Below, one piece after another: positions 5,530 through 57,857 of a stretch of 64,000 nt of DNA. Every line of letters starts with the position of its first letter. Within the stretch, counting starts at the first letter, position 1. The stretch lies in contig OX597820.1 in the NCBI GenBank assembly GCA_951406725.2, forward strand, positions 5,704,001-5,768,000. The letters run 5' to 3'. The notes beneath the pieces are model-generated. The model saw only the letters and a list, made by a program, of their open reading frames with translations, had not been told where the DNA came from and did no database searches. The stretch is from Octopus vulgaris (lineage: Eukaryota). The position numbers and the translations under genes were made by a program.

Positions 5530-5925
5530 TTATATTAAATTAGAGACAAAACCACTATTATGCAAATCAAACAAAGAAAGACTTAAGCCAATACATAAAA
5601 TAATTTATATAAATTAAATTTAATTAAAATAACCACTACGATCGTTTCTATGAGACATTCTTCTATGAGACATTCTTCAGGTGGTTTCCAAACCTTCTTT
5701 GCAAGTTTTAAACTACGATCGTAGTGGTTATTTTAATTAAATTTAATTTATATAAATTATTTTATGTATTGGCTTAAGTCTTTCTTTGTTTGATTTGCAT
5801 AATAGTGGTTTTGTCTCTAATTTAATATAATATAATATTTTACTATAAAATTGGATTCAAACCTAAATCTGATTTTTCCCTGTAAATTTGGATTTATTCC
5901 CTAATATTTATTATTATTATTATTA
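5530..5925. mobile_element. Fold-back Penelope-like terminal-repeat insertion in (TA)n
   Basis: Inverted arms of about 116 bp (5530-5645 / 5715-5830) plus an unpaired tail of about 90 nt; hammerhead motif in the left arm and spacer; same family as 52917-53150. Confidence 0.8.
5631..5686 (-). ncRNA. Minimal type-I hammerhead ribozyme motif (15-nt duplication in stem II)
   Basis: Minus strand: aaccac CTGAAGA atgtctcata-gaagaatgtctcata GAAAC gatc GTA gtggtt; 6-bp stem I, palindromic stem III. Confidence 0.8.
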
Positions 5926-6919
5926 TATATATATATATATATATATATATATATATATATGTGTGTGTGTGTGTGTGTGTGTGTGTGTGTGTGTGTGTGT
6001 GTGTGTGTGTGTGTGTGTGTGTGTGTGTGTGTGTGTGTATTGTTTTCAAGAAGATGTTTTCTGAAGCTCTATGGATTTGAAATGCAATGAGAAACCATTA
6101 ACAATGCAAAAGTATCTTTTAATTAACACTAAGTGTCACCCTTTAATTTCTCCATATTTTAATTCACTACATGACAATTTGATTTGATAAAATGAAATTG
6201 ACGACGGTTTGGAAATGAGTTCGAACCCGTATTGGTCCGACTACAACACGTAACAGAAGTAGTAAGGTAATTTAAACCCGTTGATTGAGGGTGATACCTG
6301 ATACCGATAGAGGCTATCGTTGTTAGTGAAATAAAATGTCAGCCTTTTGAAAGGAAAGACAATGTATTTCCGGCAATAATACCTCCTTCTTCTACACACG
6401 TTTCAAATACGCAGTGAACTTATTTTCTGAATATAATACTTCAAACACGTCTTGTTGAACAACAAGGAAATGATTGCATTTTGAGACGCAATCATGGGTT
6501 GCAAAGGAATGAAGAATAATGTTGAGGCAGAGAGAGAGAGAGAGAGAGAGAGAGAGAGAGAGAGAGAGAGAGAGAGAAGAGAGAGAGAGAAATTTCTAAT
6601 TTTATTGAATGTTACTTCTGAATCAATTAGGCAACATAGGTCATGATAGTAACATTTCTCCCCCAAAACTCTGTGGGTTGATAAAATATAAAATGTCTAT
6701 TTCTCTTTCTTGTCTGAGATGATAACTAATTTTGTCACTCGATCGACCGCAACGCAAATTGGTTTGAAAATTATTTAATTCTTGTCATTGTCTGATTATT
6801 GCCAAACACCGTAAGAACTCCAGCCATAATTAGAAACCTGGCAGTTGGGAATTCCCCACCTGCTTTTGTTTTTCCTTCAGATGTTGACCTTCAAAAATGT
6901 ATGAGAGAAATATTAACAA

Positions 6920-7285
6920 CTAGCACTATGACCCAGCAACGCCGGGTCATAGTGCTAGTGCATGCATATACAGCTGCACATGCGTGCGCACATGCACGCG
7001 AGTACTGTCCAAATCTCCGACCAATCACATACGGCTAGCTGGCATTCAATTGGCGTATCAAGTTTCGGGCATTTTGATTGGGCTTTGGATAGAAAATTCA
7101 CAAAAAAGTCACTTCTGTTGAATTTTTAATGGCTTTGCGGAGTGACTGGGGAAATGCAAGGATGTGCATGACCACCCTTGGACGGTTTTAAATGACCATA
7201 GAAAGTGCGAGCCCTCTAACTGAAAAATTGTGGATTTGTATAAAGGACACACACGCAGATATTTTGCCGTTTATATATAGAGAGA
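6920..7285 (-). mobile_element. Non-autonomous Helitron
   Basis: Minus strand begins A|TCTCTCTATATATAAACGG and ends ...CTAG|T; the hairpin core (CCCAGCAACGCCGGG) resembles that of the 4525-4918 element. Confidence 0.75.
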
Positions 7286-7899
7286 TAACAATCTTCTGGT
7301 TTCGGAGGGTTTCTGACGGCTACGGGCAGTACCTCATCTTTCACACTCAGCAAGAAAAAGAAAAGAGCAGGCGAGACAGGACAGACTTAACAGTGTTGTC
7401 CGTAATAAGGGATAATGAGAGAGTTTAATGACTATTAAGATTTTTAAAAACCCCCAAAAACATGTTGTCAAAAAAAAAAAATGAAAAAAAGCAACTGAAA
7501 TAGGCAAGAGGTATAAATTGAATTTCCAGAGGAGTTGTGCTGACTGCCATATTCGATGGATTCTAAATTTAATATTTCAATTTTTCTATTACGATAGAGA
7601 AAGAAAACAAAAACCTAGCGGTAACTGTTAGCCATTGTGAAAATGACAGGGAAATAATTTTAAGAAATGATGTATATATTTACTTGGGGAATGAAAATAT
7701 TCTAAACTTTGTTTCAGAAATGACGGACGGATATAGACAGATGTTTTGGCCTACATGTAGGCTTATAGGCATACACGGTGTTCTGTCTATAACATCTCTG
7801 GTATAGACACCTCATACCACATGAATTTATTTCTTTATTCAGCTGGTGAAAAATATGATTTTGACTTTTTACTGTTATTGTTGTTGTTTAGGAACAAGT

Positions 7900-54290: not shown

Positions 54291-56325
54291 AATCTCTACC
54301 TGTCTTTTTAGTTATGAAACAAGCTGCACAAAACGTGCTTTTGAATTGTGTGAATTTACTTTATATACATATATGAGTTGAAAACTTTCTTTTAACACTT
54401 CATTTATTTTCTATGTTCCATACTGGCATGGGTTGGAGAATTATTAATGTAGAAATTTGGTATCTCATCTACTAGCTGTTGAGAACTGCGTAATCTAGAC
54501 GGCGTTTTTCAATTTCATTATTCTCTTTAAACTTTTCAGTAGTTTTGGAAAGACGAAACGAAACTTTTAGTAAAATAAAGAAGGAAATAAGTGGAAATTT
54601 TACCGGTAGGTCTGTTAAATTATAAGGCACTAAAAGAGAATGACTCTCCCCAGTATATATATATATTGTGTTACACTAAGAAACGTTGCGTGGAACACGG
54701 GTTTTCGATTAGAGTCACAGGTATATGTATATGTATGCATGTACTTGCTTGCTCACTCATATTTCCAATTCGTCATACTAGTATCCTGTATGACTGTATG
54801 ACCATCCCGCATAATTTTCCAATGTACCATATATGGCACTATCCAACATAAACTCGTCTTTCAAGACGGTAAGATGTAATTTGAAAGATACGTGGCTGCT
54901 ATTTTTAGCAAAGTGAATTACCACACATTGGCATATATATCTTGATATGTATGTACACACGTATGTATATATATATATATATATATATATATATATATAT
55001 CATATACTCACTCAGAGGGACACCTTTGAGACACCTACGCACATGCCCCACTGTCACGCACCGACACACACGAACCTAAGTCAATATATGTATGTATGAA
55101 AGATAGCTACTCATAAGGTGTTCCACTGCGTGTGTACCCCTTAATACACACGACAAGTAAACTGAGATTGCATTGAGTTGTTCGTAAGGAACAGCTTCAA
55201 AAGATATGAAATCCTATAAAATATGTTTAAAGAGAATCAAAGTATTGTAAGAAGCGGGTGTTTAGTTGAGTGACGGGGTGACATGACAGTTGGTGTAGAA
55301 TGGATCATTTGTAGTGTCGAGATGTGATGATAAACATGCTGCGGACTAGGTGTGCAAAGCCACGTTTTGTGCAAATATATTCTCAGGGGTTCACTGCAGC
55401 TGTTTCCTCTGAACAATGTGAGTGCATCTCATCTGTGATCTGAGTCAGTGTTAGCCATTTCCACTTCCAACCCATCGACATTGTACCGAGATGCAGTTGC
55501 TACATCTGTCAAAGAACATGAAGAGGTATTTGACAGAAAAAAAGAGAATTTAGCAGCAGGATGATAAAAATAAAGCGCAGTTCATACTAGGCGTGTTTTA
55601 ACAGACTTGAAACATTGTCAGGAAGGGCTTACAGGAAGGAAAGCCTATGACCATATTGTACACAGCACGATAGAAGGAAACACGACACGGAATCTGACAG
55701 AGTTCTTCAGATTTGTCAAAATCAAAAGAATGTAATCGTTTGTGTTGCTTCCTGGAGTGAGACGATTGGAATCCTTGAAACTGCCATTCAAGAAAGCGAA
55801 GAAAAGGTATTCTAAATGAACAGCTTGCCCCTGCATTTAACGACGGTATTATTTCAACTGTAACCCCAAGACACATCCTCTAAATTTAATGATTCTCATT
55901 TGCAAAATAAAATTTAAAAGCTACCATTTTCTCCCAAAATATTTCTACTTCATTGATAAAAAAAAAATAAAAAACTATCATCAAAGCTCGCCACCTGGTG
56001 AGAAATTCATCGTTCATATTTCATTAGACCACTCCCACGACAGAGTTGAGTGGAAAGAGGTAAAAATCAGCAAGATTCTCAAAACAGAGAATGTGACTAA
56101 AATGAATAATAGCGGGATAGGAGGTGCCTCGATTTATTCCTTTTACCTGATAGAGATAGCAGCCCTATTTTCTTTCCTCACAATATATGCCACTGTCTTA
56201 GGCATGGCAGGTCGTATTAAGTTATGTAGCCCAAGATAGCTCTTATCAGAGAGAATGGTCATGCTGTCCACCCGTTTATCAGTTTCAGGAATTGAAGAAT
56301 AGGTGAGATGATATAGGTCTTTATA

Positions 56326-56545
56326 AGGCGGTGAGCTGGCATAACCGTTAGCACGCCGGGTGAAATGCGTAGCCGTATTTCGTCTGTCGCTACGTTCTGA
56401 GTTCAAATTCCGCCGGGGTCGACTTTGCCTTTCATCCTTTCGGGGTCGATTAAATAAGTACCAGTTACACACTGGGGTAGATGTAATCGACTTAATCCCT
56501 TTGTCTGTCCTCTGTGTTTAGCCCCTTGTGGATAGTAAAGAAATA
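56326..56545 (+). mobile_element. SINE family A with perfect 16-bp TSD
   Basis: GATATAGGTCTTTATA at 56310-56325 and 56546-56561. Confidence 0.95.
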
Positions 56546-57452
56546 GATATAGGTCTTTATATGATGGTGCGCATGATCATTTACAGAGCTTTAGAGAAGA
56601 AACAAAAGAAGATGCCTTTACTTATGGGGTGGGGTGGGGTTGTAGCAGTCGGATGAGATGCTTCGGCCCATGCCACTATTTACAGACCGAACACCCGATC
56701 AAAATAACGGAGTGAACTCTTCTAAAGGCATTCAATGGCCAGACGGTTAGGGCTGGAAGCGGGGAATATGTACAGCTCTTCCGATGGTCCTCCTCTCGAT
56801 AGAATTTTCCCTTCCAAGCTTTGAGCCAAACAGCTATGATATGAGACGTTGTAATATACTACGGCGAGGTCGGATCGAAACCGTAAGTGCGTGACTGCAG
56901 TACGTTAATCAAAAAAGCAAATATACAGCAGAAACTATTGAAAAAGGTTGCAAGACGCAACGAAAATTTTAGGAAAATAAAAATAAGAAAAAAGTGGAAA
57001 TTTTACCGGTGAGTGTGTTACATAATAAGGTGCAAAAAGAAAATGACTCTCCTTAGACACAACAGAATATGCTTCAACACACAAACTCATACAAAGAATC
57101 TTGCAAACCAAATCCCAAAACAAAAGATACTTAAGCATTTCTAAAGAAAAATAAATTATCGATTACATTTTCCTATTTAGAAAAATATAAAATTCCAGGA
57201 GAGAGTTAAAAACTTGGTTCCTACGACAGATTAATAGTCTTCATACTGCTGTTTAATCTAGAATTTCAATTATCAATTGCAGAGTACCTTAAAGTACAAA
57301 CTTAGGCGGCGTACTTTGATTTCAAATGCAGGCATCACTTGTCAGATGGCAGCTTCGTCTCCGGTGACCTTGTTGATTTCTGGAAGAAGCTTTTTGATCA
57401 GGCACCTGCCAGATCAGAGTGGACATGGGGCTAAACAAAAACAACAACAGCA

Positions 57453-57857
57453 GTGGAGGCGCAATGGCCCAGTGGTTAGGGCAGTGAACTCGCGGTCGGA
57501 GGATCGCGGTTTCGATTCCGAGACCGGGCGTTGTGTGTGTTTATTGAGCGAAAACACCTAAAGCTCCACGAGGCTCCAGCAGTGGGTGGTGGCGACCCCT
57601 GCTGTATTCGTTCGCTCCAACTTTCTCTCACTCTTTCTTCCTGTTTCTTGTCCCCGTCTTCCTACGCAGCCTGGATGCGCATTCATCCATCCGTCGATGC
57701 TCTCTGTGTCGGGGGTTGACTTGCTTTCTCTTCTGCGGGTCTTACGAATAGCAAAGGACCACGTTTCAGACTTCTCCCACGAAGACCGTTCGCTCAACAG
57801 CACAGCAGCCACAGCAGCAACAACAACAACAGCAACAATTCAAACAATAACAACAGC
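57453..57857 (+). mobile_element. SINE family C, full length
   Basis: A box TGGCCCAGTGG, B box GTTTCGATTCC, CAA/CAG tail, CAA-rich 5' flank. Confidence 0.9.

What the first reader, a model, noticed from the sequence alone, without database searches (positions are those of the whole stretch)
5530..57857. Each retroelement family occupies its own microsatellite class
Seen: Dong-like R4 copies in (TAA)n (three in one array); a second R4 family ending in or flanked by (CATA)n (41206, 48311); two Tx1 copies in (ATCT)n; PLE inserts in (TA)n; two SINE-C copies in (CAA)n. For most, the repeat lies on both sides with fixed strand polarity, which a 3' tail alone does not explain. Established: Bombyx Dong targets (TAA)n and some fish Tx1 families target (TC)n or (TTC)n. 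Inference: unrelated endonuclease types (RLE, APE, GIY-YIG) have divided the host's microsatellites as safe-harbour targets.
Basis: partly seen in the sequence, partly recalled or inferred. Interest (0 to 1): 0.72.

Follow-up and report, generated by a model that had tools for sequence, protein, structure and literature searches.

The report
Microsatellite-targeting retrotransposons, shared not partitioned
Several unrelated jumping-gene families in this octopus-like genome sit inside a characteristic short repeat (TAA, ATCT, CATA or TA), likely because each lands in arrays that were already there, but many families share the same repeat and two of the preferences are known from other animals, so this is likely inherited targeting and not a division of territory.

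Summary
The flank pattern is real beyond this window. Among the 30 best genomic copies per family, the 5' junction abuts the family's own microsatellite in the same orientation: Dong-like RLE (AAT)n 22/30, Tx1 (ATCT)n 22/30, older R4-like family (ACAT)n 9/30, against 0.2-0.4% background; the opposite orientation occurs in 1, 0 and 0 copies. Two Penelope-type families have (TA)n at most ends. SINE-C is not array-targeted (no array in 26/30); it uses short CAA/CAG sites with duplications. Junction microhomology and array lengths favour insertion into pre-existing arrays, but no empty site was seen. 'Each family its own class' fails: 8 of 11 RLE clusters and a Tx1 sister end in TAA/ATT, up to 14 repeat ends share TA, and most arrays are empty. 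Dong-(TAA)n and PLE-(TA)n are published clade habits; Tx1 microsatellite targeting is known with other motifs. This scan already reported the Tx1-(ATCT), PLE-(TA) and Dong-(TAA) cases on other DNA. The RLE family in (CATA)n was not found in my searches and is the newest piece.

The parts
14252..14571 (+). (TAA)n array, interrupted, 5' of Dong-like copy A
14566..15166 (+). Dong-like RLE element, 5'-truncated copy A (reference 3355-3956 of a 3956-bp copy)
   Evidence: 98.2% identity; RLE motif
15167..15286 (+). (AAT)n array: tail of copy A and 5' flank of copy B
15284..16703 (+). Dong-like RLE element, 5'-truncated copy B (reference 2522-3956), CCHC finger and RLE domain
   Evidence: 97.9% identity
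16704..16855 (+). (AAT)n array 3' of copy B
16856..17190 (+). fragment of a different RLE family; TAA on the 5' side only, 3' end interrupted
22273..23763 (-). Tx1 element, 5'-truncated copy A; (ATCT)20 at its 5' side (23765-23843), degenerate ATCT at its 3' side
25216..26633 (+). Tx1 element, 5'-truncated copy B between (TCTG)n(TCTA)n 25062-25221 and (TCTA)n 26637-27023
   Evidence: 98.1% to a full-length copy
38998..41205 (+). old R4-like RLE element (R4b), degenerate, with an internal inverted duplication; (CATA)n tail from 41206, no CATA at the 5' side
48303..48420 (-). 3' tip of R4b; its 5' side is (CATA)n 48424-48530, joined at a CATA-like stretch of the element's own UTR
5530..5907 (+). 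fold-back insert PLE1 between (TA)n arrays; Penelope-like by geometry only, no coding region found
52917..53148 (+). second PLE1 fold-back insert between (TA)n arrays
51468..52390 (-). PLE2, truncated Penelope-like element with inverted arm, (TA)n on both sides; family has RT and GIY-YIG
43754..44098 (+). SINE-C copy with (CAA)5 before it and a CAA/CAG tail
57455..57795 (+). SINE-C copy with a short CAA/CAG stretch before it

Best explanation
The Dong-like, Tx1, R4b and Penelope-type families sit in a cognate microsatellite far more often than chance, likely because each inserts by target-primed reverse transcription into arrays that already exist, using a preference that is likely inherited within its lineage and is shared with other families. 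Inferred steps: the endonuclease nicks the strand complementary to the RNA's 3' tail ((TTA)n strand for Dong, (AGAT)n for Tx1, (TATG)n for R4b); the freed 3' end pairs with the tail and primes synthesis, which fixes polarity; the truncated 5' end is joined to the upstream half of the array, often through 1-6 nt of microhomology. Each insertion leaves a new cognate tail, which the same and other families reuse. SINE-C follows a weaker rule: short CAA/CAG sites resembling its tail, copied as an 8-18 bp duplication.
For: Shown: 5' flank motif and polarity, 30 best copies each, strict rule (perfect run of 12 nt or more within 10 nt of the junction): Dong AAT 22/30 (AAG 5, ATT 1, none 2), Tx1 ATCT 22/30 (AGAT 0), R4b ACAT 9/30 (ATGT 0); background 0.43%, 0.23%, 0.43% from 62 arbitrary 10-kb stretches. 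Junctions fall at scattered element positions, and full-length Dong and Tx1 copies also start in the array. PLE1 TA at 21/30 5' ends and 22/30 3' ends (6 more ATT); PLE2 16 of 28 determinable and 20/30; background 4.2%. Unselected copies in 1.22 Mb: Dong 4/8, R4b 6/7 (3/6 under another rule), Tx1 1/2. Control SINE-A has no 5' repeat in 103/111. Pre-existence, indirect: 5' microhomology mean 2.07 vs 1.10 nt (Dong, n=15, P=0.002) and 1.14 vs 0.62 (Tx1, n=14, P=0.03, driven by one 6-nt case); 5' plus 3' array length (means 160, 159) near the length-weighted mean of free arrays (144, 123), and 5' halves (medians 74, 80) longer than typical free arrays (28.5, 46); 10 of 41 Dong 5' arrays adjoin the 3' end of another repeat whose paralogs mostly carry AAT, 4 more adjoin Dong's own tail. 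Literature.
Against: No empty site was observed, so pre-existence is inferred. The 30-copy sets are the best matches to the window copy (one of them is the window copy), biased to young elements. Median 5'+3' lengths exceed the length-weighted draw (166 vs 87; 141 vs 97; P 0.01-0.02), so tails, duplications or later growth add sequence. R4b is old (copies 82-89% alike): 20/30 have no strict 5' array, its own UTR holds CATA-like stretches, and one extra copy has a long (ATGT)n array upstream. Five Dong copies have (AAG)n at the junction. The Tx1 sister's ATT was seen only as a 3' tail at 2 places; the one 5' junction seen is (GT)n. Paralog counts did not exclude paralogs that neighbour a Dong copy. 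Nothing here separates endonuclease recognition from tail-target pairing.
Confidence: 0.8

Rival explanations
1. Niche partition: unrelated endonuclease types have divided the host's microsatellite classes between them, one family per class, as safe harbours.
For: The four LINE/PLE groups do have different dominant motifs, with little cross-over among the focal families; a fifth class, (ATC)n, has its own family (16 of 18 ends); ATCT and CATA are not the published targets of these clades in the papers I saw.
Against: 8 of 11 RLE clusters have a member followed by (AAT)n and a Tx1 sister ends in ATT, tail-to-tail with Dong on one array; up to 14 distinct repeat ends share (TA)n; most arrays are unoccupied by the focal family; TAA and TA preferences occur in insects, crustaceans, cnidarians and other molluscs; AC and AG arrays had no dedicated cluster in 1.22 Mb.
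Confidence: 0.08
2. Tail-seeded arrays: elements insert at short proto-repeats that resemble their tail; the target duplication puts the motif on both sides and both copies later expand by slippage, so the elements make the arrays.
For: This is what SINE-C shows: candidate duplications of 8 bp or more in 24/30 copies, several unique (e.g. L097, L098, L102, L108), and 4 or more CAA/CAG/GCA words in the 15 nt upstream in 20/30 vs 0.5% background. Flank medians for Dong and Tx1 exceed length-weighted expectation. 5' extra nucleotides can be copied from flanks (PMC4245944 passages).
Against: Copies 98-99% alike already have 5' arrays of 60-300 bp, often compound or degenerate; 5' and 3' lengths are uncorrelated (r 0.19, 0.04) and 6/27 Tx1 copies have 60 bp or more at 5' with 30 or less at 3'; many Dong 5' arrays adjoin other families' tails.
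Confidence: 0.1
3. Passive accumulation: insertion is random and copies outside microsatellites are removed by selection or deletion.
For: Microsatellites are abundant here (about 11-12% of positions lie next to one under the lenient rule).
Against: Motif- and strand-specific enrichment of 70-320-fold in young copies; a control SINE is not enriched.
Confidence: 0.02

Closest known systems
Dong (R4/Dong clade; Bombyx mori, Anopheles, Biomphalaria, Darwinula) - PMC3812793 and PMC7998251, passages read
   Same: Single ORF with RT, CCHC finger and C-terminal restriction-like endonuclease; (TAA)n target, stated to hold in most insects, molluscs and cnidarians. Dong-R4 families are annotated in Octopus (PMC9115989 passages, PMC13282606 part 1 of 3).
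   Different: Nothing for the TAA family apart from (AAG)n at 5/30 junctions. R4b, a distant homologue, has (CATA)n; ACAY is published as a target only for Waldo, an APE-type element, in the passages seen.
Kibi (TC)n, Koshi (TTC)n and crocodilian Tx1 families in (TTCC)n/(TTTC)n - PMC4494074, passages read
   Same: Tx1/L1-type APE element inserted in a microsatellite with a family-specific motif.
   Different: Target is (ATCT)n/(GATA)n and the host is a mollusc; relationship to Kibi/Koshi not tested.
Penelope-like elements of the Neptune, Naiad and Hydra clades - PMC8557442, passages read
   Same: GIY-YIG element with inverted arms, inserted in (TA)n; PLE2 has a CX4CXXC linker before the GIY-YIG core, the motif linked to TA bias in that paper (sequence).
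   Different: Clade not determined; PLE1 has no coding evidence here.
LINE/SINE insertion with microhomology and short target duplications - PMC4245944, passages read
   Same: 5' joining by annealing; SINE-C has short duplications that overlap its tail.
   Different: The paper's passages concern 5' junctions in vertebrate cells; the partner LINE of SINE-C was not identified.

Membership tests
R4/Dong clade (TAA family) | RT followed by CCHC finger and restriction-like endonuclease in one ORF | tested here: met
   RVT_1 and zf-RVT; best solved relatives are R2 proteins; RPD..D..K..KY motif
R4/Dong clade (TAA family) | (TAA)n target on both sides | tested here: met
   22/30 5', 28/30 3'
R4/Dong clade (TAA family) | N-terminal SANT/Myb-like domain | tested here: inconclusive
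   No Pfam match; an RRKWTREE stretch is seen; the published detection used HHpred
R4/Dong clade (TAA family and R4b) | RT phylogeny with named R4, Dong, Rex6 | not tested
   No reference sequences were fetched
R4/Dong clade (R4b) | C-terminal CCHC and RLE homologous to Dong | tested here: met
   31-39% identity to the Dong-like protein; RT not recovered, no intact copy among 150 scored matches
Dong proper (R4b) | (TAA)n target | tested here: not met
   0/30 AAT; ACAT 9/30 at 5', 12/30 at 3'
Tx1 clade | ORF2 with N-terminal APE endonuclease, RT and C-terminal zinc finger, L1-like | tested here: met
   1099-aa frame: Exo_endo_phos (weak, E 0.005, below cut-off), RVT_1, zf-RVT; best solved relative LINE-1 ORF2
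Kibi/Koshi subgroup | (TC)n or (TTC)n target | tested here: not met
   Target is (ATCT)n
Penelope-like elements (PLE2) | RT plus GIY-YIG with cysteines between GIY and YIG; inverted terminal arms | tested here: met
   GIY-YIG E 8e-4, just below cut-off; RT motifs read by eye, no Pfam hit; inverted arms
Penelope-like elements (PLE1) | RT and GIY-YIG coding region | tested here: inconclusive
   Only about 600 bp of non-coding sequence with fold-back geometry in 30 loci
Microsatellite-targeting element (SINE-C) | cognate array at the 5' junction | tested here: not met
   AAC 2/30, AGC 2/30, none 26/30

The most novel reading that the evidence does not exclude
An R4/Dong lineage switched its target from (TAA)n to (CATA)n and Tx1 lineages radiated over (ATCT)n and (ATT)n by changing tail and endonuclease together; because every insertion deposits a fresh cognate array that any family with the same preference can reuse, these retroelements both build and sort the host's microsatellite landscape, with target switches favoured towards less crowded classes.
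Probability: 0.2. Interest if true: 0.65.

Novelty: new variant of a known kind. Interest (0 to 1): 0.4.

Why it matters
It gives matched natural pairs (RLE in TAA vs CATA; Tx1 ending in ATCT vs ATT) for asking whether the endonuclease or the RNA tail sets microsatellite targeting, which the review passage calls not well understood. It also warns that microsatellite markers in this genome often lie against mobile elements. It does not show a new kind of system.

Tried and rejected
Empty sites from other sequencing runs: two layings of public contigs were inconclusive. (window 21500-24500; X1, X2, X16, X17): repeat letters were skipped, no bridging contig was listed. (L179, a PLE1 copy; X1, X15, X2, X17): the X1 flank contig crosses the junction, those of X15, X2 and X17 stop short of it and none bridges; absence of cover is no evidence. 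Paralogous empty sites in about 2 Mb: none real; hits were self-matches, tandem copies or low-complexity matches. A full-length R4b: the two long open frames fetched were microsatellite translations. Flanks of further Tx1-sister copies were not obtained, so its 5' preference stays open. SINE-C had no complete copy in the 1.22-Mb sample. The first PLE2 count was discarded because ends were mis-set; one search replaces it. A one-sided microhomology null was replaced by a two-sided one. No null was run for SINE-C duplications. Literature searches for the combined pattern or for the CATA/GATA targets gave nothing relevant; Repbase and subscription journals were not searchable and supplements were not opened, so the targets may be on record there.
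Full report
Setting. The window is G000:C7:5704001-5768000 in a 2.8-Gb genome that is dense in microsatellites. Its repeat content looks octopus-like (inference; earlier scan notes say the same). The finding claims that five retroelement families each occupy their own microsatellite class.

Window check. The Dong-like copies at 14566-15166 and 15284-16703 are 5'-truncated, 98% identical to a 3956-bp full-length copy and lie between (TAA)n arrays. The third element at 16856 is another RLE family with TAA only upstream. 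Both Tx1 copies have ATCT on the element strand at both ends. The R4b copy ending at 41205 has CATA only as a tail; the 48303-48420 tip starts at a CATA-like stretch of its own UTR. TA-flanked fold-back inserts are present. The SINE-C copies have only short CAA/CAG stretches.

Identity. A Dong-like long copy encodes RT, zf-RVT and an RLE motif, with R2 proteins as closest solved relatives. The Tx1 copy L248 has a 1099-aa frame with a weak APE match, RT and zinc finger, closest to LINE-1 ORF2. PLE2 has RT-like motifs and a GIY-YIG domain preceded by a CX4CXXC linker. PLE1 is Penelope-like by geometry only. R4b is an old RLE family, 31-39% identical in protein to the Dong-like element, with no intact copy among 150 scored matches.

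Genome-wide flanks. For each family I took the 30 best matches (of 40 scored; each set includes the window copy). Truncation points scatter along the element, so a 5' repeat cannot be RNA-encoded. With a strict rule, 5' flanks were Dong AAT 22/30 (AAG 5, ATT 1, none 2, one of these undeterminable), Tx1 ATCT 22/30 (AGAT 0), R4b ACAT 9/30 (ATGT 0, none 20), against 0.43%, 0.23% and 0.43% of positions in 62 arbitrary 10-kb stretches. With a lenient rule PLE1 had TA at 21/30 5' and 22/30 3' ends (6 more ATT) and PLE2 at 16/28 and 20/30, against 4.2%. In 122 arbitrary stretches (1.22 Mb) unselected copies gave Dong 4/8, R4b 6/7 (3/6) and Tx1 1/2. A control SINE had no 5' repeat in 103/111 copies. 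SINE-C had no array in 26/30; it has candidate duplications of 8-18 bp in 24/30 (no null run; many are low-complexity, about six are unique) and CAA/CAG-rich upstream words in 20/30 vs 0.5%.

Did the arrays come first? No empty site was seen (see Tried and rejected). Three indirect lines favour pre-existing arrays. 5' junctions show excess microhomology to the array (Dong n=15, 2.07 vs 1.10 nt, P=0.002; Tx1 n=14, 1.14 vs 0.62, P=0.03; only junctions with a pure cognate array were counted), in line with annealing-type 5' joining (PMC4245944, passages). Combined flank lengths have means of 160 and 159 bp against length-weighted means of 144 and 123 for free arrays, and the 5' halves alone exceed the free-array median; medians are higher than expected (P 0.01-0.02), so tails or growth add to them. 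Ten of 41 Dong 5' arrays adjoin the 3' end of another repeat family whose paralogs mostly end in AAT, and 4 adjoin Dong's own tail; 3 of 34 Tx1 copies adjoin a Tx1 tail.

Is it a partition? No one-to-one division holds. Of 11 RLE clusters in the DNA held (enriched for Dong neighbourhoods), 8 have a member followed by (AAT)n. A Tx1 sister ends in ATT at 2 places, once tail-to-tail with Dong; its one visible 5' flank is (GT)n. Up to 14 clusters of repeat ends abut (TA)n, 3 abut AAT, and none was specific to AC or AG. Of arrays of 24 bp or more, 17/110 AAT, 4/65 ATCT, 9/116 ACAT and 2/538 TA touch the focal families, so targets are not limiting.

Mechanism. Shown: family-specific motif, polarity, scattered truncation, microhomology. 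Inferred from established target-primed reverse transcription: a nick on the strand complementary to the RNA tail, priming there, and joining of the truncated end to the upstream array. Whether the endonuclease or tail pairing sets the motif is untested.

Known systems. Dong in (TAA)n, Kibi/Koshi in (TC)n/(TTC)n and Waldo in ACAY are listed in PMC3812793 (passages; it calls Dong APE-type, whereas PMC7998251 and the sequence here give RLE). PMC7998251 states that TAA is the Dong target in most insects, molluscs and cnidarians (passages). PMC4494074 adds crocodilian Tx1 families in (TTCC)n/(TTTC)n (passages). PMC8557442 reports TA bias for Naiad, Neptune and Hydra PLEs (passages). Octopus repeat papers list Dong-R4, L1-Tx1 and Penelope families; in PMC13282606 the word 'target' does not occur in the main text (part 1 of 3 read plus term search; PMC9115989 passages). 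Kojima and Fujiwara 2004 was seen only as a citation. Searches found no report of RLE in (CATA)n or Tx1 in (GATA)n; Repbase and supplements were not seen. Earlier notes of this scan already describe Tx1-(GATA), PLE-(TA) and Dong-(TAA) on other DNA; a look-up by the R4b sequence returned nothing.

Verdict. A real and strong pattern for four of five groups, mostly explained by known clade habits; two target motifs (ATCT for Tx1, CATA for an R4-like element) are new variants; the partition and safe-harbour reading is not supported. Interest 0.4.

Noticed in passing
random sample, e.g. L280: A repeat family abuts (ATC)n at 16 of 18 array ends: a further motif-associated family not in the finding; tail or target not determined.
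   Followed up: no
L005: A Dong-like copy and a Tx1 sister (62% aa to the ATCT family) lie tail-to-tail on one (AAT/ATT)n array.
   Followed up: partly
L002, L008, L009, L026, L027: (AAG)n rather than (AAT)n at the Dong 5' junction in 5/30 copies; one (L008) is an expanded GAA stretch inside the element.
   Followed up: partly
window 13400-13522, 43754-44098; L187: The SINE-C head region appears shared with a (TA)-ended SINE and with a sister often preceded by (GT)n.
   Followed up: partly
window 9676-9912, 37376-37607, 56325-56550, 59525-59751: An abundant SINE whose 3' end resembles the Tx1 3' end, yet 103/111 sampled copies have no 5' microsatellite.
   Followed up: partly
window 39640-40620: Inverted duplication (about 40310 centre) inside the R4b copy.
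   Followed up: no
window 58540-59330: Another degenerate RLE-type element with no microsatellite flank.
   Followed up: no
window 12910-13108, 13160-13310, 30396-30500, 34648-35050, 60910-61030: Further small TA-flanked repeats of other families, several with fold-back ends.
   Followed up: partly
L241, L257: Full-length Dong copy with five tandem copies of its first 28 bases; a tandem array of near-identical truncated Dong units.
   Followed up: no
window 17845-18147: 15-bp minisatellite, 20 copies.
   Followed up: no
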